A stretch of 64,000 nucleotides of DNA from Apostichopus japonicus (taxonomy: Eukaryota). The notes under the pieces were generated by a model. That model did not search any database, had not been told where the DNA came from, and was given only the letters and a program-made list of their open reading frames with translations. Shown here one piece after another: positions 1 to 32,300 of the stretch. The stretch spans positions 11,359,891 through 11,423,890 of the forward strand of contig NC_092564.1 of assembly GCF_037975245.1 (NCBI RefSeq), in the 5' to 3' direction. Position 1 is the first letter of the stretch, and every line of letters starts with the position of its first letter. The position numbers and the translations under genes are program-made.

Positions 1-19
1 TATACAACCGTCTACCAAA

Positions 20-3073: not shown

Positions 3074-3081
<8 letters not shown>

Positions 3082-3104
<23 letters not shown>
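3082..3104. repeat. (TA)n microsatellite abutting hairpin element copy 1
   Basis: Direct read of the sequence. A second AT-rich run lies at 3283-3350. Confidence 0.9.
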
Positions 3105-3282
3105 GAGTAGGTTGGCGTCTATCTTGGCGCAGAGTGCTCTATGTCCATTGGACAGAGCGGAATATATGTTGATACTAGATGAGACTAGTGGAACACTAGT
3201 AGATTGTCTGAAGATCGCTATAAAGCGTGAAACTCCGAGTTACAACTACTAGTGTTCCACTAGTCTCATCTAGTATCAACAT
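3105..3282. mobile_element. Small hairpin/palindromic element, copy 1 (truncated left arm), nested in the Foldback core and embedded in (TA)n
   Basis: The 56-bp head 'agagtaggttggcgtctatcttggcgcagagtgctctatgtccattggacagagcg' precedes palindrome arms 'gatactagatgagactagtggaacactagtag' and 'ctactagtgttccactagtctcatctagtatc'. The same module occurs at 26205-26420. Confidence 0.7.
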
Positions 3283-3309
3283 ATATATACATATATATGT
3301 ATGTGTAAG

Positions 3310-3345
<36 letters not shown>

Positions 3346-3479
3346 TTTTTTTATTAATATTACAACGTGCACACAATTGTTTCCGGGGACCTTAGCTCCT
3401 GTGTCGGAGAAATCCTGGAACCATCCCTGCATACCAATTGGACGTTAACAAACATTACTGAGTTTTCTGCCTGTATTTA

Positions 3480-7091: not shown

Positions 7092-9083
7092 AGGCATCAA
7101 ACTACCACTACATCTGAAGTAAGATATGAATATGATATGCAGTTACTTTTTGTTAGTTACCAACATCAAAAACAGTCTTCCCAACTCCAAAATCGTCAAG
7201 GACACTCATGATTACGTCATTCTGCTATCATATTTAATTGGTTGAAAGAATCTCTTATATATCACTTACCGCAACTTTGAGGTTTTTCTACTTTTAAAAG
7301 ACATAGTAAATGAGAATGATCCCTTTCTTAAAGACTCAGTAAAAATATGAGAACAACTGACCTCGGAGACACCCGAGACAACTTAACTACCTACGTGACC
7401 AATTTTTGGCTCATTCTTGCTTAGGGTCATTATATTTCAGCGTCACGTGTACTTGTTTCATCACGCAGATACAGAGATATATAGACGAGGAGGGCTGATA
7501 GAAGAATAATTTTTCTAAACAGTAACATAAACTGTCGTCCCCGATATATTCTATTTTAGTCCACTACTAACCATCATAACAGGATATTCTTTATCTTTGT
7601 AATCAATCTCAGTGCCTTTTGATTACAACTATACCTACTAGCGTATCGAGAAAGTCTTTTCTAGGATAAAATACTGACCGAGAAATTGTGTAAGAGCAAC
7701 AGGGCGTAAATAATATACTATACCATAAAGAGATCATTGTGCCACTGTTTAAGTGCAGTGTGCTTATAGACCTATGTGTTACATCAGGTTGATGTGGTTG
7801 TGTATCTACCTATATTGTATCGTTTACTCTAGAATACTTTAATTAAAGGGACACAAGGAGATCAACAAATGCTGCGGAAGGTGGCTAATTCTGGGAGGGA
7901 GGGGGGGGGGGGGATCAAAAGTTCGAATAGCAGTTGGACATGTGATTTTGATTTGAGGGAGCAGAACAGCAAAAAGATACGCCCCGACAAAATGGTACTC
8001 TGCGTATTTTCTGTACGACAAATGCCATGATTCGAATGAGTTAGACTTTCAAAGTTGTACCAAACAATAACAGTTGTTGCTTATAGCGGAGTAGTTGATA
8101 TACTTACGGACCAGCAATGTACTGTACATGCTTTGGTTGTATAATACATTGCCAGGGAGTAAAGGTGAATATATATATTGCGGTTGTTGCTTCATCTTGC
8201 ATGTTCTTTAGCACCCCCCGACCCACCCACCCCACCCGCTCTCCCTATTAATTATATTTCTCTTATGACGTTATTTCATCGATTTCACTCCCCCATCGGT
8301 TTTATTTCTTTGAGAGATGACGTTCCTTTAAATATCAGACTCATTAATTACAGTAGCTGGACTACCACGTCTAGCACACAAAACATTCGGGCATCTATTC
8401 AGAATCTATTCTAAAATTAATGGAAATATGGTTTTATGGTCTCAAATAATTCTTCACATGCCTTATACAAAGTTGTCAATGACAGAAATCTTGAATATTA
8501 TCATCAAGAGAGTGTCCCGTTTTTTCCCCTCATTTCTAAAACAAAGGGTTAATATCAATAATTGAATCCGGACTCATAACTTATTAGCCGACCCCATTGT
8601 TTCAGGCTTAAAGGATCATTCCATGACAACTATATATGCAGGCCCGTCGCACCCGCTACGGTAGGTACGGTATTTACCGTACCACTTTTCAGCTAAAAAC
8701 AAAGAGAGAGGGGGAGAAGAAAATAGGTGAGGGAGTTAGAAAATACAGTTCGAATCAATAAAATGCACGAGTCTTCATGACCAAAGCCGACCCTCTGTAC
8801 CATCATTGTGTCCTATGATGCGATGAGCCCCGGATGAGCCGGCACGAATTATTCAACGAATCTCAAGTTGTAACTGGGGCGATAGGGGCCTACGATTCGA
8901 GTCGCACCGAATTTCCCCAAACCCCCGAATTCCCCCCATTTCCCTAAGAAGGTGTCAAACCCGGAGATGTTTTACTTAGTTGAGCAGTGTAACAGTAAAT
9001 ACCGTCCGGATAATTAGGGCAACGTACAATGTATAGGGCGTGTCCCCGCGCTGCGCTACACCGGCAACTCAACGCAAAGGAAA

Positions 9084-9635
9084 GTGCCAGCCAGATTAGT
9101 TTCTGGTTCGGCCGCGGATATCATGCCTCCAGAATCAGTGGAGGACTACTTCAGGCGAATATACCTGGAGGCAGTTGACACCATTGTCAACTGCATCCGC
9201 GATAGATTTGATCAGGAGGGTTACAAAATCTACTCAAAACTACAGCAGCTGCTTCTCAAAACGTGTAACCAACAACATGTTGACGAAGAACTGTTAAAAT
9301 TCGTATGTGACTTTTACGGCGAGGATCTCCGTAAGGGCGAGCTCAGAGTCCAACTAGAAACCCTTGGGGAAACCATGGAAGCTACGGCCAAACAATCAGA
9401 GTGGACTTTGCCAGAGGTTGTTGACCACATGCGAGGGTTGAGTTTCGGTAATCGTGAGCTCCTCTCACAAGTGTGCACGCTTGTCAAACTAATTTTAGTG
9501 ATGCCTGCGACAAATGCAGTAAGTGAACGCTCATTTAGTGCTATGAGTGTAAAGAGTTACTTAAGGTCTACAATGACCCAGCAGCGACTCAACCACCTTA
9601 TGATCTTACATGTACACAAAGATTATGCGGATTGA
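9084..9635 (+). pseudogene. hAT-superfamily transposase remnant (C-terminal hAT dimerisation region only)
   Basis: The translation ends '...LVMPATNAVSERSFSAMSVKSYLRSTMTQQRLNHLMILHVHKD', the signature hAT C-terminal dimerisation motif. ZMYM1-like, ZBED-like and P52rIPK-like proteins all share the '..SERSFS....K..LRS.M...RL..L..L..' pattern. No upstream ORF encodes the BED/RNase-H-like catalytic part. Confidence 0.7.
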
Positions 9636-10346
9636 TTGAATCTAGTTGATGCAGCCAACGAATTTACCAGTGCCAAAGACCATCGACGCTCGGTGTTTGG
9701 TACTTTCCATTGATTTGAGTTCGCAGTAGAACGCTGCACACTAACCGATAGCCGGTGCTCCTTTTAACAGCGCCCATGCCCAGGAGCCCATGCTCTTCAG
9801 TATAGTAGTCGTTGTGATACCGGGAGCTTATAGGAGCATTAATTCCAGGAAGAAAGAGGGCTAAATTATACGAAAAATGCTCACATTTGCTGACCCTACA
9901 ACTCTAATCCTCAACCCTAACAAAGGATACAGTAGATCATCCTATACAACTGAATTGCTACAGGCAATCGGGTAATATCCTATATTCTGCGCCCCAACTG
10001 CAGAAAGAACAATGCTTGGAATTTGGAAATTGGAAAAAGTACTGCAGTATGGAGAGGATTCCACCCAGGTGTTGGTTGTCACCAACGCCGTAACGAAATA
10101 ATCATTGTTAACGTTTATTGCATAATTTCAAAAGCCTCACAGAGACTAACCGCACTCGGCGAAATCTTTGCTCACCCACAAAACATTTTTGAGGCCCTAA
10201 CCTCAAAGGAAGGTAGACTAATTGAGGAATCATTTTAGATAATCGTAACACTCATAAGAACTAGCAAAATTATCAAATTCGGATAAACTGTAACTATTCA
10301 GGTGCGTATCCAGGGGGGGACGTTGGGGGCGCGCGCCCCCCAGGTA

Positions 10347-10476
10347 AGGAAAAGAGGAGAGAAAAAAAAGAGAAGAAAAAAGGGAAAAGGAGGGGAAAAA
10401 AGAAAAGGAGGAGAAGAAGGAAGGGAAAAGAAAAAGAAAAAAGAGAGAAAAGGGAGAAAAGGGAGAAAAGGAGGGA
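10347..10476 (+). repeat. ~130-nt pure polypurine (GA-rich) / polypyrimidine tract
   Basis: The + strand is almost exclusively A/G: 'aaggaaaagaggagagaaaaaaaagagaagaaaaaagggaaaaggaggggaaaaaagaaaagg...'. It generates mirror-image spurious ORFs on both strands. Confidence 0.9.
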
Positions 10477-10769
10477 GCAGAAGATAGCCAAGACCTCGGG
10501 AAGAGAAAGATCCCTATTATATACACAGGGTAGCCAGTGACAGATCAAGGATTACGGAGGGGGTGTGCGCCTCACCCTACCCCTTACCCCGACAACTCCA
10601 TTTTGACGTTCCGTTTTTCCTCTCTCACTAATGTACTTGAACTCGACCGAGTCGTCGGGGAACATAACGCATTTCGGGAAGGGGGCGACCGCCCCCCGAG
10701 CAAATTTTCTTTATGACATCGCTAGTAATTTCAAAATAGACAATGCTTAGATGCAACTTACAAGGCCTG

Positions 10770-10864
10770 GGAAGTGTCATTTCCAGCGATCTGGGAGGCA
10801 TTTTCGGCCAAAATTTTTCTTGTACGCTTCGCGCCAACTCATGGTGGCGCTTCGCTTAGATAGT
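10770..10864 (+). repeat. ~95-bp dispersed repeat, copy B
   Basis: 'ggaagtgtcatttccagcgatctgggaggcattttcggccaaaatttttcttgtacgcttcgcgccaactcatggtggcgcttcgcttagatagt'. It is followed at 10893 by a solo MITE terminus 'cctacgcctatg'. Confidence 0.7.
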
Positions 10865-11449
10865 TTGCCTACAGGCTTCGCCCCCGTCTCCTACGGGACC
10901 TACGCCTATGAGTGAAGTGTTCGGTTTCGATATACCTGATATCGGAAATATCTGCTATTTTTCTGTTCCTTCAACCAAGTTTTGTAAAAGCCATTATAAG
11001 AGGTTGCAATATTTCTACACCAATAAATTAACTGTGTCGGAATTTTCCAAAATTTCCTCACCAACATTCTTCATCATACTTTCCTCTACTCGTTCAATTT
11101 TCACCTGTCTGTTAGGGGTTCAAGGAGGTTTTTCTATATTGGTTGTCTATAGATTGAATTTTGTGCAACATTATGGGTATGTTTTCAAGTGATTTTATTC
11201 ACGAGAAAAGGGAATTTTCAAATTCTCAACAAGTAATGGGCTTAAAACCTTCAAAAGTGGGGCTTTCGGATATTGTGGGCCGTGACGTAGAATAACCTAC
11301 AAAAGCAATGATCCATAGGACATGCAATCAGGTCGAACATGATGTGTGACTGGTGACAATCTTCAAAAAGGTTATGGATGGAAAAAAACTTTTGGGAAAT
11401 ACTTGGTTCTCAGGCAAAAGTGTACATCTAGTTGCTCATTTTCAAGCCC

Positions 11450-11544
11450 GAGAAGTGCCATTTCCGGTGATCTGGGGGGTATCAAAACCAGAAATTTTCT
11501 TGTACGCTCCGCGCCAACCGATGGTGGCGCTCCGCTTAGATAGT
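11450..11544 (+). repeat. ~95-bp dispersed repeat, copy C
   Basis: 'agaagtgccatttccggtgatctggggggtatcaaaaccagaaattttcttgtacgctccgcgccaaccgatggtggcgctccgcttagatagt'. Confidence 0.7.
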
Positions 11545-11925
11545 AATTCGCGCCCCCGGGTTAGAAAATCCTGGATACGCGCCTGCTATTACAGTACAGG
11601 CAGTTCTGAACCTTTCATTTATTTTTACTGGCGTAACGACGGTGCGGCCGTCCCGCCACTAAGTTGGAAAAGACCTCCAGCCCGTCGGAATTTCTACCAT
11701 TCATACCCCTACTATAAGACCCTAGCTAGTAGCTATACCGCCCTGCATACACTTTGTAAGTTCAAAGTGCTATATGCTCTTCCGGTGCAGCTGTGAAGGA
11801 CATGGGCGCGAGAAGGTAGAACATCCATGACTAAAGATGGGATTCTTCAGTTCATGTAGTTATAAATGAAAAAATACTGAGTTCGCAGGAGGAGAGTGTA
11901 CAACATCGTGGCCAAATTTTGCCCC

Positions 11926-12018
11926 GCAAGTGCCATTTCCAGCCATCTGGGCGGTTAGAAGATTCAAAAATTTTCTTGTACGCAGCGCCAACCGATGGTG
12001 GCGCTCCGCTTAGATAGT
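11926..12018 (+). repeat. ~95-bp dispersed repeat, copy D
   Basis: 'gcaagtgccatttccagccatctgggcggttagaagattcaaaaattttcttgtacgcagcgccaaccgatggtggcgctccgcttagatagt'. Confidence 0.7.
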
Positions 12019-13195
12019 AAATCGAACCGGTCAACAAAAATACCGTACCACTTTCAAATACCTTCCGACGGGCCTGTATATATGTACATATTAAACTATA
12101 GTAACTTGAAAACGGAAGTAGCCATATACAAATATTGCCTGCAGACTACTAAGACACAGAAGCGAGTTCAATAAGACAATAGATAATTAACAATGCCGCG
12201 AGAGTTTGAAACAAAGTTTTTATTATGAAGTTAACATATTCCGGGCGTGTGAGTGACAACTTCAAGAATTTGAAATAAAGTCGTCCGATTAATTTGATAT
12301 GTGACTCTCAGAAAATGCTGCGCTTTTAAACTACCGTATATAATGTATAGTGAACTGGACCGTTCTTAATATCTGAACTAAAAAGGACCAGTTCGGAACT
12401 GATGTTGCGAAAACTTAATCAGACGGAAGGAGAAAGCCCTCGTGCAACTGCAGAGATGAACAATGGTTACTGTATGTATAATTCAAACCCGAAAAGTATA
12501 TATTCCATTCGAGGAACAGATAGTATTCCTTAGATAATTACACGTACCAGTTTGTGTATAGCCTGTGTGAAGTGGAGTAAAACCTATACAGTTTTGTTTA
12601 CGCCTTCTCTGAGTACAAATCAACCATATTTATACAGATCGGGTGAACTCTTATTATGTGTACAGTTTTTCAACTTAATGAAAGTGTCAAGGAAAATTTC
12701 AATATCGCTGCATTAGAAGGATGATTTACGGGATTTTGTTTTTATTTAAACCAGTAACATGAGTAACTTTTAATGTTCCTGATTGATATGGGAAGTTTAT
12801 TTCAATGTTGGAACTGCTTGTTTTAATGGAGTAGCGGATTTGGGTTGTTGTTCTTTCCATTATCACTTACATATGCGATCGATAGTTGAGTAATTACGTG
12901 ATGAGGATTTGATAAGTCATTGAGTACTTTCGATAGTGTTGGACATTTTGTCGTCATCGATATTTTTAATTCAAGAGAAAGCTCTTAAGAACAACCTTTG
13001 TGATGCCAATGTAATAAGAGCATTATTTATTTAGCTTGGAAATAAAACGTTTTGCAACTTGAACAATTTTGCGACTTATTTAATGTCAATTTTGTTTTTT
13101 GGTTAATCCATCTCTACATAACACTACGGGGAACTATTTATTCTGCTACCAAACTACGACTGTGAAACAAATCCTAAAGGGATACTTCAAGCATC

Positions 13196-20721: not shown

Positions 20722-22018
20722 GGCAGAAACGTTGCCTAATCTACGAGGACCCTTTTCATTACTTTAATTCATTTTATTTATATAATACACCCGATAGCAT
20801 TATGCCATTTTGATTTTATTCCTCTGACAAGTCTGATATCCCAGGATAATAAAACGTATACTATATAACTATTTCTAGCAAAATGAAGAAACATAACAGA
20901 TTCAAGTAATTCCCTCAAGAATAACTGTGACTCCTTTGGTCATAAATAATCAAACTAAATCAGTTTGGCTGGGAGCAATTGTTATCTCCCAAAATGTTTG
21001 TGCAATTATGGTTACTTCTTCGTTTCTCTTTATTGTCTGTACACGTGACCAAGATTGGACACGAGGTTATAAAATCTTAACCACACTGTCTGTGTTTGGT
21101 GTATATGATGAGTGGCATACCTTCGAGCCATGTGCTGTTACTGTAAATTATATTAAATTATATATTGTTGATATGGAGATCTATTAATGTAATATTTAGT
21201 CTCTAAATCGACATTTGTTAGATTTGCTGAACCTGTTTGACATCATGAATTTAAGCTTGACAAAGGGAAGTCTGAAAAAGACGTAGAAGGTATAATAGGG
21301 GGAGGGGGGGGGGGGGTGGTAGTCAAAGATGGCAGTGTCAGTATAGCGTGTTCGTTACATTTGAATTTAATATCCACGCCCATCTGAAATTTATAAAATT
21401 GATCTTTAATCGTTATTGGTATTGTTATTTTGTGAGGTTTCAGTCGGGTGATTAAAACGATTTATAAATGCCATCCGTCTTCATATCTGCTCAATAAGTC
21501 CAGACTCATCCTTAGTCAGGCATTCGATCATGATGCAGGGACGACGGGGCCTGATGGGGGGGGGGTGGACAGGGGCATTATTCCCCTCCCCTCCCAGTTC
21601 TTTATCATATCTAAAGAAAAACGATAGCAACAATAGTGTTCATCGATTAAATAATAATATAGTATAAAGGCCTAATCATTCAACATTTGAACAAGCCTTA
21701 ATTTGCACAACAAGCATACAGCACCGCACACGACGGTACAGCCGTACTACAAGAAATGCCCAGACCCCATAATGACAACTCTTTAGAAGGGCAGGGGAGA
21801 GAGCAAGAATTAGTGAACTTGGCTCTTAATCTATGTACAGCGTGATAAATTCGCAGGATTAACAGTAAAATAAGGCGTTTAATCCTCCACTGCTTCACAA
21901 CTGAACCCCAACCCAACCATCTGTCCATATCATACACCTATAGTCTGAACGATACAAACAAGGATATTACCATTTTGAAACGTTACAAGTTTGAAGAGTA
22001 AATAATATGTGAGAGAAC

Positions 22019-22385
22019 CAAGGGCGTAGGAACCGGGGGGGCTGGGGGCGCCAGCCCCCCAGTGAAAAATGCGGAGGGGCGGAAGTATCATTCCGCCCCC
22101 CCCCGCTTCTCAAGTCAGAAAACCCCTTTTTCATTTCAAAATGAGAAAAAAAATCTCATTTGGAGCACCAAATTGCATCTAAGGCCAGGTGAAAATACAA
22201 AATTAAGTTTACAAAATGGAGTGGGTGTTGAAGTGTGCTATATTACACCAAATTGCATCTGAGGCCACCTGGAAATGCAAAAAATTCCAAAGGGGAGGGG
22301 GTTTGCCCCTCCCCTTAAACCCCTCCCCCAGGCCGGCCATAAGTCTTCAGCCCCCCCACTCAAAAGTACCTTCCTACGCCACTGG
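22019..22385. mobile_element. hAT-like MITE, copy 1 (367 bp), TIR 'caagggcgtagg'/'cagtggcgtagg', perfect 8-bp TSD 'gagagaac'
   Basis: The TSD lies at 22011-22018 and 22386-22393. The interior holds G/C homopolymers and GGGGAGGGG..CCCCTCCCC hairpins ('aaggggagggggtttgcccctcccctt'). An 8-bp TSD with a CAG..G terminus is the hAT hallmark. Confidence 0.7.
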
Positions 22386-23983
22386 AGAGAACGGTCGCTC
22401 ACACGCGGCTATTTACAACATATATTTACGCTTCTCGTCGAATAACAAATCATGTTTTATTTTGTTGATTTATTAAATTGGGGAATTCTTTATACGTCAA
22501 TTGACCAGTATTACTTAATAAATAACTGCAGTCGACTGGAATGTTCCATTTTCTCGCCATAAGAGATGCATGCTAACATGTATGTACCATGGATACATCA
22601 GCGGCAGGTATAAATCTGTAATGTGCATCCTGAATGGAGCATTTTCAGATTAAATATATAGTCAAACGTTTGAGATAAAATGTCAAATTGTAATGAATAA
22701 GTCGAAATATTAGTATTAAACTATTGTAGGATATAGTGGAAGTTTTGGGATAAAGTAGTTGAAATTATGAAATGGGAGATTAAAATTTATATATGACGTA
22801 ATGACGTAATTTGGAGAAACACAATATCGAGATACAATAATCGAAATTTTCAGTAAAAAAAGTGGAGAATAAAATTGTCGAAATTTTTGAAATAACTATT
22901 ATCGCAATAACTGTTTGTATGAAATAAATGAAGAAAGAGCTCAAAATAAGTCGAAAAGTCTAAATTTTGAGATAAAAGGTAGAATATTTGGTATAACATG
23001 TTGTCAGGTAATATTTTGAAAGTTGGAGAAGAAAGATCCAAAAAGGGATTAAAAGAGATTTTTTTGCCAAGAAGTTCAAAAATGTGGCGAAAGCTTTAGG
23101 TCATGAGGTTTGCTAGGCTCTAGATACATTAATAAAAGAGGTTTGACCTCCTCTATAATGTTTCATTCTATCATGCATTTTACCTCTTAAATCACTCAAA
23201 GCAGTTTATCAAATTTATACACACAAATAAACATACCTAGACATATGATGTGACAGTTAGTATTGGTATTTAACCAAGTGTTTTCATAATTGTATAGACG
23301 ACCCCCACCTACCCCACATGAGAAATATAATTACATACAAACAGTCAATACATAAACACATTATAATGGATTCCCGCGCAACGCACACACACACACACAA
23401 AACGTGTTGCCTTAAAGGTCAAAAGTATTGCGTTGAAATTTTAGAAATGTTACAGGTGTACAAACAAATTAGTAATTATAGGTGTTTTTGTTCATGCCAT
23501 CTCTGCCATCTCAAATTGACTCCTAAACAATTCAAAATGAAGGTAATATCATTTAGAAAAATGATATTATTGGATGAAAACAAATCTTTACTCAGTGAGG
23601 TTGACTGTAAGAGAGCCTTGAAAGGGTGTGACAACATTTTGATCACATTAGGTGCTACAAGGATAACGAAAGGGGTGGGCGGAGTGGGCTGAAAGGGGGG
23701 GGGGGAGGACAATGCTGAACGGATGATCTTTAATTGAAGTAAAGACATGAAGCAGATGAGGGTGAGTTATTTATATGCTTATTTGAATCATGTACGTCAC
23801 ACCTGGCCTTTTACTGAGATGTTTCTCTCAAAAACAAGTCAGCTACTCGGTCGTAAAAGCAAGACTATACAGTATGAAATGTTTCCCCGGAAGGAATAAG
23901 GGCGGTATTGAAGAACTTTGCATGCATAGACTCCGGATGTCTCACCTGATTAATTTGCAGATGACGTTGCAATGGTCCCTACC

Positions 23984-24363
23984 CATAGGCGTAGTAGGCG
24001 AGTGGGCTGAACCCCCCCCCCACCCCATCCAAATATTTTTTTTTGGTGAAAATTCGGGAAATATGCGGCGAATTTTTCGGGCACCTACTGAAAGAAAAAA
24101 TAAATTGGAATGTGTTTTTCAATGGTTAAACTGAGATTATTATTACGTTATTATTGTAATAACTTTCCCGAAAAATTCTAACCAATATGGAAGGGGAATA
24201 ACACGGCAAATGACTGTATGTAATTGGCATGCGATGTAATAACCGATGCATGCCTGTATGATATGCGCAATAACATGTTGAACGCGCGAACAATTTTGGT
24301 TATATTTTGCAGGCAAGTCGTTACAGCCCCCCCCCCCAACCATATTGGGTTCCTACGCCTATG
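23984..24363. mobile_element. hAT-like MITE, copy 2 (380 bp), TIR 'cataggcgtagtagg'/'ccataggcgtaggaa', degenerate 8-bp TSD ('tccctacc' vs 'gttctacc')
   Basis: The termini 'cataggcgtag' at 23984 and 'ctacgcctatg' at 24352 are mutual reverse complements. The interior poly-C/G tracts at 24015 and 24335 mirror copy 1. Confidence 0.6.
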
Positions 24364-26134
24364 GTTCTACCTAGCTGTACCGCTTAAAATTGGTCACAGG
24401 GGTTCTACTCGTAATGCGTAAGGTTGACATGTAATATACATTTTGAATAGTCGAATGAGAACTTTTATTTCAAGATACGTGTGTTCCTTGTACGCTTTCT
24501 GCCGTGCAAGACATTATTTTCGTAATAGAGATATTTTGTTCTATTGAAAGTCAATTTATACGTTCCCCCTATCAGCGTAATGGTACTACTCAAAGCTTCA
24601 TTTACATGGACTTTTTTAGGGGGATGTCAATTTCTGTATCAAGCGCAAGATAATATTATCAACATTTACTAATTTAATAGTTATACCAAGTGTGACAATT
24701 TTAATGTTCCTTTGATACTCTTTTGTACTCTTCCAGTTGAACCATTTTTGTAACATTGACATAAATTGCAGACCCTTTACAATAATATTTTAGTAACAGC
24801 AACTTCCTTGAGAAATGATGGTCTGCCGTCGCTGGCCAAAGGATTTGCACCAACGAAGTCTTCAGATTTGAGTACAGCATTTCTGTATATGTTGCCGTGT
24901 TTGACGAATCTAACCGTAATAATTATTACCGACTTTGCGATCCGCGCTTTATAGACATTGCCGACTTTGCAATCCGAGATGGCCTTCACTAGTTTACAAG
25001 GAAACCAAAAAAAAAAGGCGCTATTTGTTCTAGAAAACAGATTGTTTTCACCAGAGGCGATGAACAGTACTTGTACCTTGCTTTTATATATTATTGGATT
25101 ATTATAGCCATTGGATAATTTCTATTGAGAAAATTCAGTTGAAACAATATACTCGTAGCTATAACACTGGTACAGACATGGTGTACCAAATAAAATTAAA
25201 AATGCAAACAAGCGTACACTTGGCAATATTTAATTAAAGATATCTTAAGACTCTTCTTGATTCATTATTCTACAAACATATTTATTTACATTCCATCCTG
25301 CACTGGATAGAAAACACGTAATATTCAAATATTGTTCTTTTTAACACCTTGTCTAAGGCGAGGATGAATTATTTCTCAACTTTTCAAGTCACTTGATCAT
25401 GGTAAAGTAATAATGATTTTGGCAATGAAGCAGGCAAGTTTTTTTTTTATATTGAATTAATTAAAAACAACAGAAACATTAAAATTCCATAATTTGGGGC
25501 ACTATACAACGCTATTAACAACCTTTTCAGAGAATCGCTTCAGGTCTATTTTCCTCATGATTTCGTTCTGCGTTAACTCATTGCCAACTCATTTCGTTTC
25601 CTGTGTGCAAAACCTCTGATGTTTAATTCAGATCACTAAGATTGATGATTTTCAATCAGATTTATATTATCTTCATTCTCTTATAATCTTGCTAGAATAT
25701 TTGATTTACGTCTTCTCTGTTCATAGATTTATATCTGAATGGTAAATAGTCTATCGTCGTCTGCAGCTTCAGCAGACGGGACATCTACGATCTACGGCGA
25801 CGTGCGCGATTCTCGCTGCTCTGAGTATTATACTCACTTCCTCTGTAGGCTCTGTGTTTAAATAAACACGCAACAGTCGAAGACGAGAAAAGAGAGCAAA
25901 CAGTCAGTAGGGACAAATATAATGCATGCAGCGTATTGGAGCTTGTTTCCTCGCATCATGCAGTGATTGTGCTCCCCCCCACTCCTTCCTTTGTATAATT
26001 TAACCACCACCTCACATATAGAAACGTGAAGTTACAGGACGCGAATATAGTGCCCATTATTGAAAGTTGTGGTTGCCCCCAATTCAATTCCTGTCTACGG
26101 ACCAGTATATAGGCTATACCTTTGGTGCATACCG

Positions 26135-26135
<1 letters not shown>

Positions 26136-26204
<69 letters not shown>
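26136..26204. repeat. (TA)n microsatellite, left flank of hairpin element copy 2
   Basis: Direct read of the sequence. Confidence 0.95.
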
Positions 26205-26208
<4 letters not shown>

Positions 26209-26418
26209 TAGGTTGGCGTCTATCTTGGCGCAGAGTGCTCTATGTCCATTGGACAGAGCGTAATATATGATGAGACTAGTGGAACACTAGTAGTTGTTAC
26301 TCGGAGTTTCACGCGTTATAGCGATCTTCAGACAACTGTTGTCTGAAGATCGCTATAACGCGTGAAACTCCGAGTAACAACTACTAGTGTTCCACTAGTC
26401 TAATCCAGTAGTATCAAC

Positions 26419-26420
<2 letters not shown>
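26205..26420. mobile_element. Small hairpin/palindromic element, copy 2 (full ~70-bp perfect arms) flanked on both sides by long (TA)n
   Basis: Same 56-bp head, then a perfect palindrome centred at about 26338: '...actagtggaacactagtagttgttactcggagtttcacgcgttatagcgatcttcagacaac|tgttgtctgaagatcgctataacgcgtgaaactccgagtaacaactactagtgttccactagt...'. Confidence 0.75.

Positions 26421-26506
<86 letters not shown>
26421..26506. repeat. (AT)n microsatellite, right flank of hairpin element copy 2
   Basis: Direct read of the sequence. Confidence 0.95.
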
Positions 26507-26512
<6 letters not shown>

Positions 26513-27408
26513 GCTTATAGCTGTATAGGGAATTACAAAAGTTCACCTATAATTTATATTACAAAGTCTATGCCGTTCTTGGTTCAATTTACCTATTTTC
26601 GAAAGCAATATATTCTACACATAAATGGACCTGGGTGAGTTTGCTCGCTCAGGGGTCGCATTTCAAAGTTACAGTACATGTTAATTAATATTACCAAGTG
26701 AATTTACCGTATGTAATATTTTTAAGCGCTACATTTTGCTTGCCACTGGAATATCCCTTTAAAGTTCATCATAAGCTCTGGTTCTTTCGGGGAAAATACG
26801 ACTTACGATTAATATGCATCATAGTCTTGACGTCATCACAATAATATCGATCACCCACACCATTCTGACAGCCTGACAGATTTACAAAGTGATACCAAAC
26901 TCATAACCAACAACTCATAACTTTTCATTAAGCCATGCTATCTGGATAAGGAATTTCAACATCTATGTAAGAATTTCGCAGCATATTTTCAGTTCTCAAC
27001 GATTCAATGGATTTGAGAAACGCATATGCCAACTGACAGCTAGGCGCGTTGCTGCTGGGTTCTGAGTGAAAATAAAATGTGATCAAGAAAAAACATTAGT
27101 AAATCGATAGAAATCATCCCTGGGCATCTAATGAAAGGTCTATGTGTAACCTTGAGATAACTATTAGATACAATTAGCATAGTAACTGTAAGTTTGGCGA
27201 GGTTAAAATAAAAAAGAAGTATTTTGGTCACGTCTTAGACGAATATTCATTTGAATGGAAGAGACCATTGTAGACTTTATACCGTAGGCCTGTATATCGG
27301 TAAGTTACGTATAGACTTACCACAGATACAGTAAAATCAGAATTGTCTTCTATATGCCGATGAATAGATCATATCAAGTAGTATTAATTGTTATTATGTT
27401 GTAACAGC

Positions 27409-27796
27409 CAGTGGCGGACTGGCCACACGGGCAATGCCCGGTGGGCCGGGGAGCCTGGTAAAAATTACAGCCCATTTTCACAGTAGTTAATAGAGTTTTA
27501 AACATATTTTTTTTACGTTTTAACTTTCCTCATTTTAATCAAGTGTTGCTTCTGGAAAATTATTTTTGGGTCATTTTTATAGGATTATTGTAACCTACAA
27601 AATTGAGAAATATAGCATCATATTTTGCATCTAGGCATTCCTTAACTTCAAAAAAAAAACCAATGGGGAAGGAGACACCCTTCCCCTTAGACACCTCCCC
27701 AGGACGGCGATCACTTTATAAGTAGCATATCAATGAATAATGGGCCGGTCTAGGTGGAAAATGCCCGGGCCGGTTTTAAGACCCAGTCCGCCCCTG
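27409..27796. mobile_element. hAT-like MITE, related family (388 bp), TIR 'cagtggcggactgg'/'caggggcggactgg', perfect 8-bp TSD 'gtaacagc'
   Basis: The TSD lies at 27401-27408 and 27797-27804. The interior contains the 'ggaaggagacacccttcccc' hairpin. Its terminus shares 'CAGTGGCG' with the 22019 family. Confidence 0.72.
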
Positions 27797-28029
27797 GTAA
27801 CAGCCCTGTGGGGTGATCATTGACTGAATATTTGAAAACAACAAACAGATGGAAACCCACGCCACGGCAACCACGTGCACCGACGCTGATTATCGGAGAG
27901 ACAATCAGCCAGTGAAACTCGGTGTAGTATACACATGGACGTCCTCAGTGGAAGATGCATGTGATGAACCCCCCCCCCCCCACCCTTCCGAACAACAAAC
28001 AGTTGCGCCCTCGTTAAAAATATCAATTC

Positions 28030-28540
28030 ATACAGATACCTACCACTGGCGGATCCAGGGCCTTTATTTGGGAGGGGTCAAAGTGGCATTAGAGTGATAT
28101 GGGGGAGGGGTCTAAGGGGAGGGGGTTTCTATTGCTGAATGCCCTCAGATGCAATTTGGTGCGACAAAAGTGTACAATGGTGATGTTAATTTACTTCTAA
28201 AAAAAATGTTTCCCAGGTGTAATTTTCTAAAATATTTATAAAACAAAGTTGGGATCATCTTTCTCAAGAAATTTTATTTCTCATAGGTTATAAATTTCTT
28301 ACAACCAGCCTGTAACTGCAAAATGGTGTTAAACTGTAAATCCTCATTCTCATACATTTACATAGCTCCCAACTCTTGGGAAGGCAAATGCTGGTCCACG
28401 CCACGAATCGCCGTCCTGGGGATTGGCATGGGCGGCGATCCTGGGGGGGAAGGGGGATATATCCCCCCATGAAAATGGGTGGAGGGGATGTAATACACCA
28501 TATTCCCCCCACCAAATGCCAAGGATAAGAATTTTTTCAT
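28030..28540. repeat. Cluster of degenerate fragments of the same MITE family (inverted orientation), rich in GGGGAGGGG/CCCCTCCCC hairpins
   Basis: The reverse complement of 28032-28175 aligns to the right half of copy 1 ('caccaaattgcatctgag...cccctcccctta.acccctccccca...ccgccagtgg'). The terminus 'taccactggcggatcc' equals the reverse complement of a 'ggatccgccagtgg' TIR. 'ggatcgccgcccatg' is shared with 29355. Confidence 0.5.
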
Positions 28541-29230
28541 GCCTTCATTTATGCATCATCGTGAATGTACGGCTCTTTTTAGCTTCATTTCTCGCCTACC
28601 ATAAACGCAGTGCGATCTTTTCAAATAAACCGTCTTTATAAAGCAAGAATAATTGACTGTAGGCTTCATTGGCCCTATAACAACAAAATGTATTATTGCG
28701 CCCACCGTATTGATATAGTACATATATGCACCCTCATAGTATTCATATAGGCCCTATAGTAGGCCTACACACGAACATGTTCCCTCGAACAGCTGAGAAT
28801 CTCATGTTACCAGGGTAATGCTTAATACACGTTTCACCTGGATGCCCTAGCAATCGGTACCTAGGAATGTAACTATGTGTAAGTTGTGTATTGCATGTGT
28901 ATAGGCCTATAATAGCCTGCATGATACCATTTTCTTCATTGAATAATATAAAAGAGCTCTCGAACATTCTAACGTAGCGCCTGAAACAAGATTGACAGGG
29001 GCAATTTTCCCAAAATAACACCCGAAATTAAAAAAAAAAAAGTATTTTGGATCCTGATTTTGAGATATTTCGGACATGATATCCCTATTTTCTTTCTTCA
29101 GGGAGTCTTCCACATTGTTAAGCTTTTAAGCTTTATGGAAGACTTCCCTCCACTTTGTACTTTTGTGGCAAACAAATAAATAAAAAAAATAAAAAAAGTT
29201 GGGTATTATATATGCCGCTTGGAAACCTCG

Positions 29231-29325
29231 GCAAGTGCCGTTTCCGGCCATCTAGAGGGTTTGTAAATCCCAAAATTTTCTTGTACGCTTCGCGCCAACA
29301 CATGGTGGCGCTACGCTTAGATAGT
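29231..29325 (+). repeat. ~95-bp dispersed repeat, copy E (followed by MITE-family GC-hairpin fragment 29340-29420)
   Basis: 'gcaagtgccgtttccggccatctagagggtttgtaaatcccaaaattttcttgtacgcttcgcgccaacacatggtggcgctacgcttagatagt'. Confidence 0.7.
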
Positions 29326-32300
29326 CAACAAGGTCATATCCCCCCACTCGGAAGTTCGGATCGCCGCCCATGGGGAGTGGTATAAGGGGAGAGGGAGGGG
29401 GTGTTCCCCTCCCCTTTTGATTTTTTTTGGAATCCTGGTGATGCCTACATGTAAAATAGTGGCACTTAGAAAGGCTTTGGTCACCCAAAATCTTCTGAGA
29501 AATATGCATTTTTTTTGTGTGTAACATCAATAAATTGAATAGTAGGGTGATAATTCATTCTTTCCCGTGGCATGAAAATGTTCGCTGCTCGCCCCAATGA
29601 AAAGAATTATAGGCTAATTTGAGGTTCAAATGATGCTGTAAAGGAGGTTTTATACTCTATTATGCTAAATGCTAAAGAAATGATGGTTGCTAGGTCAAAA
29701 TTTGATGCAAATTTTTTAATGTATACTTGACAATTACAATGCGGTTTTTTCCGACGCTTGTGCCGGTCAGCGGGTTTGGGTGTTAGAATGCGGGTCTAAA
29801 AATTTTTATCACTCACTTATAAGGCGCTTCACGGATCTGCACCATCTTATCTGAAGGACCTTCTTAAACCACGATCAGTGAGCTACTCCATACGATCTCA
29901 TGACAGTTTGATTTTAACTACCCCCCGTACTCGCTGCAAGTCCCTTGGTGACCGATCTTTTTGTGTCTATGCCCCCAAATTGTGGAATGCACTCCCATTT
30001 TCTATTCGCAATTCAAGTACTGTAAGTTCATTTAAATCCAGTCTTAAGACTCATTTTCACACGTGTATATAATTAATCTAGTTTTACTCATTTTCACACG
30101 TGTATATAATTAATCTAGTTTTACTTATTATCTCATTCTTTTTGTATTTATCTCTTACTATTGTTTTATCCTATTTATCACAGAGTGGCATGGTATATAC
30201 TGACTTCGTTGTCTCCATCGTTATTGGATTTGTTTAGTCTTTTAGGGTTATCTGTTTTTAAGATTGTTACCTCTTTCTTATGATTAACTTGGTTTCTTAA
30301 TTTTCTTTAAGTTTTTTACCTTTACTCTTTTAAGTTTGTACAGCGCCATAGCTTTTGTTTTTACATATATATGTGCGCTTTAGAAATGTTTAAATAATAA
30401 TAATAATAAATAGTCTACCACTGCTATTCCTTTCGATTTTTTTAGTTTCCAATCATATGATTTAGCGGATGTTCGGAAACACTTTTTGGCTCACCTTTGG
30501 GGGGGGGGCATGGCCCCCCTTGGCCCCGCCAGTGATACCTACCTGTATATGGAAAGCTTAATGTTAAACTAATGGTTATTCGTTAAAATACAACCCAGCT
30601 ATATCGACCGATACGGTGATGGTTAATCGGTTCAGTTTTGACGGTTAACAGTCTTTGCTTATAGTGTGGTGTGCGGAGCGAGGAATTAGGCAGCGTTAAT
30701 AAATGCACTTAAGGTTTCAAATGCAAACAGACAATCGACGAGAACTGAGGACTAATGAAATGTACTGTTGATCAGAATTTTATTATAAGATTTGTTAAGG
30801 AAACCTCCTTAACTTTTACACATAGATAACAAATAAGACAACAATAAGATGGAACAGGTTTATCGGAGACATCAAATGGTGCTTTTAATACTATAGTCTT
30901 ATAAGACTCTTAATTATAATTTTTATAAACTTGGCGTTATTTATATCATGACAGAAAAAGAAACGAAGAGCTGTTTATTATTTACTACACTATACCAGCA
31001 GGCTGTCACACTGTTGTGGCCTACAGCCAATCACAGTCCAGGCTGTCACACTGTTGTGACCTACATCCAATCAGGGTCACAAGTTCAAATGAACACATCG
31101 CGCACTTTTGATTGACAGGCTCTTCTGTTTGGTTATATTGCTAATGTTTACTATGATGCATTGTTTATAACATAATGAACAATAAATGAACATTTTATAC
31201 TTCAAAAAGCAAGTTATAAACATCTGAAGAAAAACTAACATTGTCAATAACTCTGTTCAATGATAAATAGGATGTGAATGTGAAGAATAAAAAAAATCTG
31301 GAGAAACTCTATGAATCTCACTTTATCGAATACCACGAGCCCGCCCCCCCCCCCCCAAATGTTTAAAATAATTCAGGTTTTAATTTGATTTCTTTCTTTA
31401 AAGTTGGACAGTTTTTAAACAAATAAATTGGCGATATCACAACATGACACAGACATAAATGATCTGCACTATATCACAAAACTTATAAACAAATTTTAAA
31501 GCAAAATTGGCAAAAAGGTTACCATAACAACAAAGAGGAAAACATAAACAATCAAGAAATGCAAAGAACATGTAATATAAACAATGGAGGCTATTCTAAC
31601 ATTATTTCTACTTAATCATCATCCTCATTAGCTAGAAACAAAATTATCTAGTAGGAAAACCTTGATTCAAGTCTAAAGAATTTGAGAGCTAAGTGCCAAA
31701 AGTAGCTGATCAACTATGTGTGAAAGAAGAAAGAATTATGAGGCTTGATACATTAGCTGAATACATTATTGTTTGAAATCTTCAAAAACCTTATAACATA
31801 TCGCAATATTAAATACATAACACTTCATCTTGACCGACTATGTACTGACAGTAGAGATATACCTAGTAGGAGCAGGAAAGTTTACCCAAAGACCAACACT
31901 GTTCTCAACATTCCTCAAGAAAAACAAAAACATTAAGTTGGCAAGTTTCCTTACATACATTCGTCTGAGTTGGGATCAAATTCGACTGAGGTCAAAATAT
32001 TGACAGCAAATAACATAATCTTGATTTCAAGGAAAAAAAAATTTGGCAAGGAATTGGAGTCTATTTTTGAGATTAAGTGAACTGAAATCAACAAACGGTT
32101 GATTTCTCATTTCTCTGAATCGTCAAATAAGATGTTCTTCGTCAGAATATATATGGTAACATGTGTTAAGACTAAACATGTTGTGGGGGATGTTTACTAA
32201 TGTCATACAAAATCAGAGCTTATCATGTTCTCAGGCTTGAAGAGAGAGTGAGGGAGAGGTCAGATGGGGTGGAAGAGGGTCAGATGGGAGGAAGGGGTCA

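What the first reader, a model, noticed from the sequence alone, without database searches (positions are those of the whole stretch)
22011..28540. Family of hAT-like MITEs with 8-bp TSDs, 'CA(G/T)(G/T)GGCG' termini and G/C-homopolymer plus GGGGAGGGG/CCCCTCCCC hairpin cores
Three complete copies lie within 6 kb, at 22019-22385 with TSD 'gagagaac', 23984-24363, and 27409-27796 with TSD 'gtaacagc'. Inverted fragments lie at 28030-28540 and solo pieces at 10893, 29340 and 2760-2840. Two TSDs are perfect, so insertions are recent. The interiors are dominated by runs of 9-12 G or C and by short perfect hairpins such as 'aaggggagggggtttgcccctcccctt'. This explains the otherwise odd abundance of (G)10-14 tracts across the window and could create G-quadruplex or i-motif hotspots.
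Basis: seen in the sequence. Interest (0 to 1): 0.6.

Follow-up and report, generated by a model that had tools for sequence, protein, structure and literature searches.

The report
Tip100-type hAT MITEs in a sea cucumber
The flagged stretch holds several small, non-coding "cut-and-paste" transposons of the hAT superfamily (Tip100/Pegasus-like ends) in an echinoderm genome; this is ordinary repeat content, correctly spotted, but it is several families rather than one, and it does not explain most of the G/C runs in the window.

Summary
Elements at 22019-22384 and 27409-27796 have inverted ends and perfect 8-bp target-site duplications (TSDs). The element at 23984-24363 has a perfect 11-bp inverted end but only a 5/8 TSD. 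A scan for end pairs plus an 8-bp TSD finds 6 elements, against about 0.5 in shuffles.

The 'fragments' at 28030-28540 and the 'solo piece' at 29340 are the ends of two complete nested elements (28044-30534 and 28427-29372). A 3.4-kb element (8639-12076) carries a hAT transposase C-terminal remnant.

The ends (CA..GGCG) match 8-10 of the 11 bases of the end of Tip100, an autonomous plant hAT that makes 8-bp TSDs. They also match the silkworm 'Pegasus-like' MITEs.

The three copies are not one family. They are about 59% identical overall. Copies 1 and 3 share only a ~110-nt module that carries the GGGGAGGGG/CCCCTCCCC hairpin. That module, and further 8-bp-TSD elements, also occur in Holothuria leucospilota.

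G runs sit at fixed offsets from the ends (about nt 16 or 28). Even so, only 3 of the 17 runs of 10 or more G/C lie inside these elements.

One nested relative (10299-11585) makes a 5-bp TSD, shown by an empty site.

Verdict: new members of a known kind, of low to moderate interest.

The parts
22011..22018 (.). Left 8-bp target-site duplication of copy 1 (GAGAGAAC)
   Evidence: Identical to 22385-22392
22019..22384 (+). Copy 1: a 366-bp non-coding hAT-type MITE. Ends are CAAGGGCGTAGGAA / CAGTGGCGTAGGAA (12/14). G7 starts at nt 17 from the left end and at nt 28 from the right end.
   Evidence: As single-stranded DNA it folds at -72.8 kcal/mol, z = -6.0
22385..22392 (.). Right TSD of copy 1 (GAGAGAAC)
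22231..22340 (+). Module A in copy 1 (TTGCATCTGAGGC ... GGGGAGGGG hairpin ... CCCCTCCCCTTAAACCCCTCCCCC). Its 5' half is duplicated at 22165-22205.
   Evidence: BLAST to copy 3 and to 29360-29461; alignments; motif search finds 4 hits against 0.06 expected
22290..22316 (+). Perfect hairpin with an 11-bp stem (AAGGGGAGGGG GTTTG CCCCTCCCCTT). The overlapping 22306-22329 is a canonical C-rich G4/i-motif sequence.
23984..24363 (.). Copy 2: a 380-bp MITE. Ends are CATAGGCGTAG (11/11). C10 starts at nt 29 and G11 at nt 27 from the ends. The TSD is only 5/8. Its interior is unrelated to copies 1 and 3.
23672..23705 (+). Solo remnant resembling the left subterminal region of copy 2 (GGAGTGGGCTGAAA followed by G11)
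   Evidence: Seen in the sequence; it scores as a G4 motif. Its assignment as a remnant is an inference.
27401..27408 (.). Left TSD of copy 3 (GTAACAGC)
27409..27796 (+). Copy 3: a 388-bp MITE. Ends are CAGTGGCGGACTGG / CAGGGGCGGACTGG (13/14). The right end matches the Tip100 end at 10 of 11 positions. No G/C run is longer than 4.
27797..27804 (.). Right TSD of copy 3 (GTAACAGC)
27601..27712 (+). Module A in copy 3. Its hairpin is GGGGAAGG / CCTTCCCC, a change on both arms relative to copy 1 that keeps the pairing.
28044..30534 (-). A 2491-bp non-autonomous element. Ends are CACTGGCGGATCCA / CACTGGCGGGGCCA (12/14). The TSD is ATACCTAC, 8/8 (28036-28043 and 30535-30542). It holds two copies of module A in reverse orientation, around 28100-28168 and 28395-28426 plus 29373-29470.
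28427..29372 (.). A 946-bp element nested in the previous one. Ends are CATGGGCGGCGATC, 14/14. The TSD is GGGATTGG / GGGAGTGG, 7/8. It carries module C at 29226-29325.
   Evidence: (repeat families D14 and D20)
8639..12076 (+). A 3438-bp internally deleted hAT element. Ends are CAGGCCCGTCG. The TSD is TATATATG, 8/8 (8631-8638 and 12077-12084). Module C lies 58 nt inside its right end.
   Evidence: Counterpart in H. leucospilota: L017:9679-12857, with TSD GGCGATAG
9084..9635 (+). Remnant ORF (183 aa) for the C-terminal dimerisation region of a hAT transposase
   Evidence: Pfam PF05699, E = 1.7e-8. 28% identity over 162 aa to Tip100 transposase, E = 1e-12. 763 homologues, including one named 'zinc finger MYM-type protein 1-like'.
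10299..11585 (.). A 1287-bp element nested in the 3.4-kb element. Ends are CAGGTGCGTATCCAGG / CAGGCGCGTATCCAGG. It matches the terminal 20 nt of Tip100 at 16 positions. Its TSD is 5 bp, CTATT (10294-10298 and 11586-11590).
   Evidence: An empty site exists in Logan contig L018, which is 99.6% identical on both sides and holds a single CTATT
10888..10910 (-). Unpaired right end (reverse complement CATAGGCGTAGGTCC) inside the 1287-bp element.
   Evidence: no partner end was found

Best explanation
The region carries several distinct non-autonomous DNA transposons (MITEs and larger deletion derivatives). They belong to the hAT superfamily and have ends of the Tip100 / 'Pegasus-like' type. The host is an echinoderm, most likely a sea cucumber.

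Mechanism: a hAT transposase made by an autonomous element elsewhere in the genome recognises the 11-16-bp terminal inverted repeat (5'-CA..GGCG(G/T)A...) together with G/C-rich subterminal motifs. It cuts the element out and reinserts it across an 8-bp staggered break. Repair of that break produces the 8-bp duplications.

The elements are mosaics:
- related but different terminal repeats;
- a G run in a fixed register, starting about nt 16 or about nt 28 from the tip;
- interchangeable ~100-nt internal modules. Module A carries the GGGGAGGGG/CCCCTCCCC hairpin and module C is a second shared unit.

Shown here: inverted ends, TSDs, nesting, an empty site for one relative, a hAT transposase remnant in one relative, similarity of the ends to Tip100, and presence of the modules and of further 8-bp-TSD elements in a second holothurian.

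Inferred: which transposase moves them; that the G run and hairpins are part of end recognition; that the long G/C runs grew by replication slippage.
For: - TIR plus 8-bp-TSD scan: 6 hits in the window against 0-1 in ten Markov shuffles.
- TSD length distribution: four exact 8-bp TSDs, with none of 6 bp or more in 8 shuffled windows.
- Terminal motif enrichment: 13 against 2.6 and 13 against 1.3.
- Tip100 has the end CAGGGGCGGAG and makes 8-bp TSDs (PMC12511174). Its right-end sequence was read from the supplement. The window's CA..GGCG-type ends match it at 8-10 of 11 positions (7 of 11 for the 3.4-kb element's own ends), and the right end of 10299-11585 matches at 16 of 20.
- Silkworm BmMITE-13 to -16 have 8-bp TSDs and ends CAAGGGCGGATCCAG, CAGTGGCGGATTA and CAGTGGCGTACCTA, and are classed as 'Pegasus-like'.
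- A hAT dimerisation ORF lies in the 8-bp-TSD element 8639-12076. It aligns to the Tip100 transposase and to no solved hAT structure at E up to 10.
- That element has the same layout (module C, then 46-58 nt, then the terminus) as the MITE-like 28427-29372 and 10299-11585.
- H. leucospilota loci L017 and L019 hold four more elements with these end types, plus one Charlie-type hAT, all with perfect 8-bp TSDs. They also hold 7 copies of module A and several of module C.
- 14 of 24 termini have a G/C run of 6 or more within 70 nt, against a 2-3% background (binomial p about 1e-11). The runs start at nt 15-17 or nt 27-31, and 13 of 14 are G on the CA strand. Tip100 itself has G5 at nt 28.
- No Rfam family and no tRNA was found in the region.
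Against: - No autonomous element with matching ends was found. The only transposase remnant sits in an element whose end (CAGGCCCGTCG) matches Tip100 at only 7 of 11 positions.
- Copy number in the genome could not be measured. Each exact family is seen only once in 64 kb.
- A translated query from copy 1 found no relatives.
- The hAT target-site consensus (nTnnnnAn) is not evident in the dozen or so TSDs seen, as judged by eye.
- Elements with near-identical ends make 5-bp TSDs: 10299-11585 and a family in metagenome contigs. The end type alone therefore does not fix the transposase type.
- The TSD of copy 2 is only 5/8.
Confidence: 0.85

Rival explanations
1. One reading: one recently amplified MITE family. 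The three elements are copies of it, and the nearby pieces are its fragments and solo ends.
For: The ends share the CA..GGCG core. Copies 1 and 2 share GGCGTAGGAA. Copies 1 and 3 share module A. Two TSDs are perfect.
Against: Global identity is 0.58-0.60, close to the 0.54-0.57 of shuffles. Copy 2 shares no interior with the others. The 'fragments' are the ends of complete nested elements with their own TSDs. Module A is only 68-78% identical between carriers and is shared with H. leucospilota, so it is old.
Confidence: 0.05
2. The elements belong to another superfamily that also makes 8-bp TSDs (P, Merlin, Novosib, Zisupton or MULE). The CATG- and CATA-starting ends would then be P-like.
For: 28427-29372 starts with CATGGGCG and copy 2 starts with CATAGGCG. 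From memory, P elements start with CATG and make 8-bp TSDs.
Against: The GGCG(G/T)A core and the following CCAGG match Tip100, a proven hAT. The only transposase remnant in an element of the same architecture is a hAT one. No THAP or P-type ORF was seen among ORFs of 110 aa or more.
Confidence: 0.04
3. The G runs, GC hairpins and G4-capable module A are the selected, host-relevant payload, and the transposon ends merely spread them. They might act as regulatory elements, replication elements or chromatin boundaries.
For: - Module A is joined to at least three different end types and is conserved between two divergent holothurians.
- Its hairpin is kept in 8 of 10 copies, with one change on both arms.
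- Its core is a canonical G4/i-motif sequence.
- The G runs sit in a fixed register.
Against: - A fixed register relative to the transposon tip points to a role in transposition rather than a host role.
- Tip100 of plants has the same G run at nt 28.
- Two module copies have lost the hairpin.
- No expression data, conservation at orthologous sites or chromatin data are available.
- Shared ancestry alone explains the conservation.
Confidence: 0.07
4. Chance inverted repeats and low-complexity G/C sequence, with no mobile elements involved.
For: G/C runs and G4 motifs are abundant everywhere in this genome.
Against: The shuffle controls, the nested insertions each with its own TSD, the empty site and the homologous elements in another species.
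Confidence: 0.01

Closest known systems
Tip100 (autonomous hAT element of Ipomoea purpurea) and the hAT-Tip100 group
   Same: - 8-bp TSDs.
- An 11-bp end, CAGGGGCGGAG, against CAGGGGCGGAC, CAGTGGCGGAC, CACTGGCGGAT and CAGTGGCGTAG here (8-10 of 11).
- The next bases, CCAGGATT..AACC, recur in 10299-11585.
- A G run about 28 nt from the tip.
- The transposase remnant in the window aligns to the Tip100 C-terminus.
   Different: The elements here are non-coding, or retain only the last ~180 aa of the transposase. They are in an animal rather than a plant. The G runs have expanded to 7-13. They carry the extra modules A and C. No autonomous copy is in hand.
'Pegasus-like' MITEs: Pegasus of Anopheles gambiae, BmMITE-13 to -16 of Bombyx mori, and the RepeatMasker class hAT-Pegasus
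   Same: Size of 260-430 bp. 8-bp TSDs of no fixed sequence. Ends of CAAGGGCGGATCCAG, CAGTGGCGGATTA and CAGTGGCGTACCTA, nearly identical to those of copy 1, copy 3 and 28044-30534. The class name is in use.
   Different: The interiors could not be compared because no silkworm or mosquito sequences were available. The host is an echinoderm. The subterminal homopolymers and module A are not described for those families.
hAT5 group (hAT elements with 5-bp TSDs; Putnam et al. 2007, as cited in PMC9004415)
   Same: 10299-11585 makes a 5-bp TSD, shown by an empty site. A metagenome-borne MITE family with CAGGGGCGTAGGAA ends shows perfect 5-bp TSDs at 4 of 5 loci.
   Different: Copies 1 and 3 and the two large elements make 8-bp TSDs. 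No hAT5 transposase was linked to any of these elements.
Charlie/MER1-type hAT MITEs
   Same: 8-bp TSDs and a CAGTGG... start. Examples lie in the H. leucospilota loci: L017:10466-12228 and L019:14044-14936, with ends CAGTGGTTCTCAA.
   Different: Their ends continue TTCTCAA rather than CG(G/T)A. They have no subterminal G run in register. Their TSDs fit nnnTAnnn.

Membership tests
hAT superfamily, non-autonomous element / MITE | 8-bp target-site duplication | tested here: met
   Perfect 8/8 TSDs for 22019-22384, 27409-27796, 28044-30534 and 8639-12076, and 7/8 for 28427-29372. No shuffled window gave a TSD of 6 bp or more. Copy 2 reaches only 5/8.
hAT superfamily, non-autonomous element / MITE | Short terminal inverted repeats beginning CA(G/A)NG-like | tested here: met
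   11-14 of 14 matches between the two ends of each element. All start with CA; the third base varies (G, A, T or C).
hAT superfamily, non-autonomous element / MITE | Derivation from, or mobilisation by, an element encoding a hAT transposase with the same ends | tested here: inconclusive
   A hAT dimerisation-domain ORF lies in 8639-12076. That element shares module C and the end layout with two of the small elements. However, its end differs from those of copies 1-3, and no autonomous copy was found.
hAT superfamily, non-autonomous element / MITE | Small size, no coding capacity, high copy number | tested here: inconclusive
   Size is 366-388 bp and only spurious ORFs of 90 aa or fewer are present. 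Copy number cannot be tested without the genome. A translated search found nothing.
hAT superfamily, non-autonomous element / MITE | Target-site preference nTnnnnAn (Ac type) or nnnTAnnn (Buster type) | tested here: inconclusive
   About a dozen TSDs were inspected by eye. There is no clear consensus and the sample is too small.
Tip100 group of hAT | Terminal sequence CAGGGGCGGAG | tested here: met
   8-10 of 11 identical for all twelve termini of copies 1-3, 28044-30534, 28427-29372 and 10299-11585; 7 of 11 for the 3.4-kb element.
Tip100 group of hAT | Transposase of the Tip100 / 'ZMYM1-like' type | tested here: inconclusive
   The remnant aligns to Tip100 at 28% over 162 aa, E = 1e-12, and to no solved hAT structure. 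One homologue is named 'zinc finger MYM-type protein 1-like'. No phylogeny was made, and the remnant is not in copies 1-3.
Pegasus-like MITEs | 8-bp TSD of any sequence, a CAGTGGCG-type end, and a few hundred bp in length | tested here: met
   Compared with Table 1 of PMC2997013.
One single MITE family (at least 80% identity over at least 80% of the length) | Copies alignable along their whole length | tested here: not met
   Identity of 0.58-0.60, against 0.54-0.57 for shuffles. Only a 110-nt module is shared, at 68%, between copies 1 and 3.
hAT5 (applies to 10299-11585 only) | 5-bp TSD | tested here: met
   Comparison of the filled site with the empty site in L018: a single CTATT in the empty site.
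P superfamily | Long (~31-bp) CATGATG... ends and a THAP-type transposase | tested here: not met
   The ends are 11-16 bp and of the Tip100 type. No such ORF was seen. The P-element features are recalled from memory.

The most novel reading that the evidence does not exclude
In holothurians, one pool of Tip100-type transposon ends (CA..GGCG plus a G run in a fixed register at about nt 16 or 28) and shared subterminal modules may be used by two kinds of transposition machinery. One makes 8-bp duplications and the other 5-bp duplications. That would mean a recent switch in cut spacing within one hAT lineage, or cross-mobilisation between the Tip100 and hAT5 groups.

In addition, the 3.4-kb deletion derivative is far more similar between two distant sea cucumbers (dS = 0.21) than their host genes are. 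This would point to horizontal transfer.
Probability: 0.15. Interest if true: 0.5.

Novelty: new member of a known kind. Interest (0 to 1): 0.25.

Why it matters
Mostly it matters for annotation. These elements, their nested structure and their modules should be masked and classified as hAT-Tip100/Pegasus-like, with one hAT5-like relative, before genes or regulatory elements are called in this genome.

Two points could interest transposon specialists:
- The strict register of the subterminal G run, shared with plant Tip100, suggests that it is part of end recognition.
- Nearly identical ends are associated with both 8-bp and 5-bp duplications.

The general excess of G/C homopolymers and G4 motifs in this genome is real, but the MITEs do not explain it.

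Tried and rejected
- A translated spurious ORF of copy 1 was used to fish for other copies among predicted proteins. No candidate was found.
- Exact look-ups of the window ORFs 23318-23692 and 23790-24134, meant to fetch allelic contigs for a presence/absence test of copies 1 and 2, were not on record.
- The search for 'Tip100' with 'ZMYM1' found nothing.
- The search for sea cucumber, hAT and MITE found only an unrelated piggyBac paper.
- Partner ends for the unpaired termini at 2727, 9778, 10910, 11801, 18250 and 56355 were not found.
- I briefly read copy 2 as having a 5-bp TSD. This was rejected, because the matching CTACC is offset by 3 nt on the right side, so it is only a 5/8 match of an 8-bp TSD.
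- To test whether the 'orphan' G runs mark decayed element ends, I scanned upstream of them with a terminus weight matrix. Only 2 of 14 exceeded the 95th percentile of random sites, and the overall shift was weak (p = 0.026). Their flanks share no similarity.
- Column-wise covariation counting on the module A hairpin was abandoned because the alignment register shifts between copies. Each copy was folded on its own instead.
- The Rfam scan and the tRNA scan were negative.
- The bacterial promoter/terminator scan is irrelevant to a eukaryote.

Full report
WHAT THE WINDOW IS

The sequence is eukaryotic. It holds AT microsatellites, satellites and many interspersed repeats, and no tRNA genes. A 433-aa ORF at 13196-14497 is 100% identical to products on two Logan read-assembly contigs. 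Its only named relative is a hypothetical protein of the sea cucumber Holothuria leucospilota, at 48% identity. The host is therefore an echinoderm, most likely a holothurian other than H. leucospilota. The species could not be named.

CHECKING THE OBSERVATION

Only the end of copy 1 needs correcting: it is 22384, not 22385.
- Copy 1 (22019-22384, 366 bp) has ends CAAGGGCGTAGGAA / CAGTGGCGTAGGAA and a perfect TSD, GAGAGAAC.
- Copy 3 (27409-27796, 388 bp) has ends CAGTGGCGGACTGG / CAGGGGCGGACTGG and a perfect TSD, GTAACAGC.
- Copy 2 (23984-24363, 380 bp) has a perfect 11-bp inverted end, CATAGGCGTAG. Its flanks match at only 5 of 8 positions.

I wrote a scan for CA...TG end pairs matching at 11 or more of 14 positions, 80-5000 bp apart, with 7 or more of 8 matching flanking bases. 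It gave 6 hits in the window, against 0-1 in ten Markov shuffles. I then scored all such end pairs for the longest exact flanking repeat. Four had exactly 8 bp, and no pair in eight shuffled windows exceeded 5 bp. The elements and their 8-bp duplications are real.

The same scan showed that the 'inverted fragments at 28030-28540' are the left ends of two complete elements.
- One is a 2491-bp element at 28044-30534, with ends CACTGGCGG... and TSD ATACCTAC, 8/8.
- Nested in it is a 946-bp element at 28427-29372, with ends CATGGGCGGCGATC (14/14) and a 7/8 TSD.

Further upstream lies a 3438-bp element at 8639-12076, with ends CAGGCCCGTCG and TSD TATATATG, 8/8. It contains an ORF (9084-9635) for the C-terminal dimerisation region of a hAT transposase (Pfam PF05699, E = 1.7e-8).

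Nested inside that element is a 1287-bp element at 10299-11585, with ends CAGG(T/C)GCGTATCCAGG, flanked by CTATT on both sides. A Logan contig (L018) is 99.6% identical to the 3.4-kb element on both sides of this insertion. It lacks the 1287 bp and carries a single CTATT. This is a textbook empty site, and it proves a 5-bp duplication.

The 'solo piece at 10893' is a genuine unpaired right end (ending at 10910) inside this nested element.

ONE FAMILY OR SEVERAL?

The three copies do not align as copies of one family. Global identities are 0.58-0.60, against 0.54-0.57 for shuffled sequences. Local BLAST finds only a ~110-nt segment shared by copies 1 and 3, at 68% identity, and also present at 29360-29461. 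Copy 2 has no interior similarity to the other two.

I call the shared segment module A. It reads TTGCATCTGAGGC, then an A-rich stretch, then the GGGGAGGGG-loop-CCCCTCCCC hairpin, then TTAGACCCCTCCCCCAGGACGGC. It occurs four times in the window, all between 22.2 and 29.5 kb:
- once in copy 1;
- once in copy 3;
- twice, in reverse orientation, in 28044-30534.

A second ~100-nt unit, module C (...GTGCCATTTCC...TTTTCTTGTACGC...GCGCCACCAT...CGCTTAGATAGT), occurs four times. Each copy lies 46-58 nt inside a right end, and the four ends are of different types:
- CATGGGCGGCGATC;
- CATAGGCGTAGGTCC;
- CAGGCGCGTATCCAGG;
- CAGGCCCGTCGGAAGG.

The last of these is the end of the element that still carries the hAT transposase remnant. 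The picture is therefore a group of mosaic elements with related ends and exchangeable modules, not one family.

FURTHER COPIES ELSEWHERE

I fetched 42 kb of H. leucospilota around homologues of two window proteins (loci L017 and L019).

These loci hold four more elements with CA..G.CG-type ends and perfect 8-bp TSDs:
- L017:2663-5039;
- L017:9679-12857;
- L017:14792-16522;
- L019:7009-7668.

A fifth possible element, L019:12947-13079 (133 bp), also has a perfect 8-bp TSD, but its ends match at only 11 of 14 positions. L017:9679-12857 is the counterpart of the 3.4-kb deletion derivative. The loci also hold a Charlie-type hAT element with a perfect 8-bp TSD (L017:10466-12228). Seven copies of module A are present, four of them in tandem inside one element, along with several copies of module C.

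One scan of metagenome contigs for GGCGTAGGAA, then 325-355 nt, then TTCCTACGCC gave 14 hits. Seven of them begin with CA and are evidently eukaryotic MITEs. One has a 7/8 8-bp TSD. A family of five distinct loci shows perfect 5-bp TSDs at four of them. So the TSDs do hold on further elements. The same type of end, however, is seen with two different duplication lengths.

WHICH KNOWN KIND?

Full-text searches for the terminal strings found two useful papers.
- The silkworm MITE survey lists BmMITE-13 to -16. They have 8-bp TSDs of no fixed sequence and ends CAAGGGCGGATCCAG, CAGTGGCGGATTA, CAGTGGCGTACCTA and CAGTGGCGGATTT, and are classed as 'Pegasus-like' (PMC2997013).
- A paper on Tip100, an autonomous hAT element of morning glory, gives its 11-bp end as CAGGGGCGGAG and shows 8-bp duplications on integration (PMC12511174). 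Its supplement gives the right-end sequence and the last 250 aa of the transposase.

The window's ends match the Tip100 end at 8-10 of 11 positions. The right end of copy 3 matches at 10 of 11. The right end of 10299-11585 matches at 16 of the first 20 nt, including CCAGGATT.

The transposase remnant in the window aligns with Tip100 over 162 aa (28% identity, E = 1e-12). This is well beyond the ~50 aa covered by the Pfam domain. It matches no solved structure at E up to 10, although, from memory, the hAT transposase Hermes has been solved. Its 763 database homologues include one named 'zinc finger MYM-type protein 1-like'.

I therefore file the elements as non-autonomous hAT elements with Tip100/Pegasus-type ends. 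The 5-bp-TSD relative fits what the literature calls hAT5, described as 'unusual in having 5 bp TSDs' (PMC9004415).

G/C HOMOPOLYMERS, HAIRPINS AND G4 MOTIFS

The window has 27 G or C runs of 7 or more, against about 0.9 expected from base composition. It has 19 canonical G4 motifs, against about 0.15 in shuffles. The H. leucospilota loci are similar, with 12 runs of 9 or more in 42 kb.

Only 8 of the 27 runs, and 3 of the 17 runs of 10 or more, lie inside the defined elements. The flanks of the remaining runs share no similarity. Only 2 of 14 have a terminus-like motif upstream. The MITEs therefore do not explain the tracts, which are a property of the genome as a whole.

Within the elements, however, the runs are not random. 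Of 24 termini taken from both species, 14 have a run of 6 or more within 70 nt, against a 2-3% background (p about 1e-11). The runs start either at nt 15-17 (seven cases) or at nt 27-31 (seven cases). In 13 of the 14 cases the run is G on the strand that reads 5'-CA inward. Tip100 itself has G5 at nt 28-32 of its right end. The two registers differ by about one helical turn. I infer that the G run is part of what the transposase recognises, and that slippage has lengthened it in this genome. Neither step was tested.

It belongs to module A. Eight of ten module copies fold better than almost all shuffles, and copy 3 carries a change on both arms that keeps the pairing. Two degenerate copies have lost the hairpin. 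Common descent is enough to explain this. The module's core, CCCCTCCCCTTA.ACCCCTCCCCC, is a canonical G4/i-motif sequence in copy 1 and at 28101-28125.

All three MITEs fold more stably as single strands than their shuffles do (z = -6.0, -3.2 and -2.7). This is expected for elements with inverted ends.

RECENCY

Perfect 8-bp TSDs allow up to a few per cent divergence, so 'recent' is only weakly supported for copies 1 and 3. Better evidence for recent activity in this group is the 99.6% identity between L018 and the 3.4-kb element, together with the presence/absence of the 1287-bp insertion.

VERDICT

It is refined here to Tip100/Pegasus-type ends. It is corrected on three points: family unity, the 'fragments', and the claim that the MITEs explain the G/C tracts. 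This is ordinary repeat content of a kind long known. The specific holothurian elements were not found in the searchable literature, but they may be in Repbase or Dfam, which I could not query.

Noticed in passing
window 10299-11585 (flanks 10294-10298 and 11586-11590); L018:1525-1605: A 1287-bp element has ends that match the terminal 20 nt of plant Tip100 at 16 positions, yet it makes a 5-bp (CTATT) target duplication rather than an 8-bp one. An empty site in a 99.6%-identical Logan contig proves this. It looks like a hAT5-type element sharing ends and module C with its 8-bp-TSD neighbours.
   Followed up: partly
window 9084-9635 and 8639-12076 compared with L017:9679-12857; window 13196-14497 compared with L019:10001-11305: The hAT deletion derivative is 82-98% identical in nucleotides to its H. 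leucospilota counterpart. The ORF gives dS = 0.21 and dN/dS = 0.24 over 126 codons. The host orthologue, by contrast, is only 48% identical in protein, aligns over just 191 bp at 72%, and its flanks do not align. This suggests horizontal transfer, or a slowly evolving active lineage.
   Followed up: partly
termini of 12 elements in the window, L017 and L019: Subterminal G runs start at nt 15-17 or nt 27-31 from the transposon tip in 14 of 24 ends. In 13 of those 14 the run is G on the 5'-CA strand. Plant Tip100 has G5 at nt 28.
   Followed up: yes
whole window; L017, L019: There is a genome-wide excess of G/C homopolymers (27 runs of 7 or more, against 0.9 expected) and of canonical G4 motifs (19, against 0.15). 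Most lie outside recognisable repeats. 42 kb of H. leucospilota shows a similar excess.
   Followed up: partly
window 26136-26509: A near-perfect palindrome (68-nt arms at 26269-26336 and 26338-26405, 99% complementary, 1-nt spacer) is embedded between two long (TA)n tracts. It looks like a foldback insertion into a microsatellite.
   Followed up: no
window 1-4500: Arrays of ~141-bp tandem units each carry a Tip100-like string, CAA(A/T)GGCGGAACTAGAG. They are in + orientation at 176-1203 and in - orientation at 2727 and 3450-4500. The two arrays form a large inverted structure (for example 111 and 4504, matching 14/14). This may be a satellite derived from a MITE end.
   Followed up: no
window 54301-55186: A 159-bp satellite of 5.5 copies at 94% identity. 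Four of its units contain the string CAGTGGCGCGATGG, another Tip100-like terminal string.
   Followed up: no
L006, L007, L009/L012, L010, L016 and L013 (metagenome contigs Ga0209052_*, Ga0056124_*, Ga0056121_*): These are MITEs from an unidentified eukaryote in host-associated or environmental metagenomes, with CAGGGGCGTAGGAA ends like those of copies 1 and 2. One family has perfect 5-bp TSDs at 4 of 5 loci. A separate element (L013) has a 7/8 8-bp TSD.
   Followed up: partly
window 29780-30050 (inside 28044-30534): This stretch reads like the conserved 3' tail of a LINE or SINE. Judged by eye, it translates to ...SYLKDLLKPRS...RSFCVYAPKLWNALP.... It suggests a retroelement fragment carried inside the hAT-type element. 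It was not tested.
   Followed up: no
window 60928-61347: An ORF with a glutathione S-transferase C-terminal-like domain (Pfam PF00043, E = 8e-5), probably an exon of a host gene.
   Followed up: no
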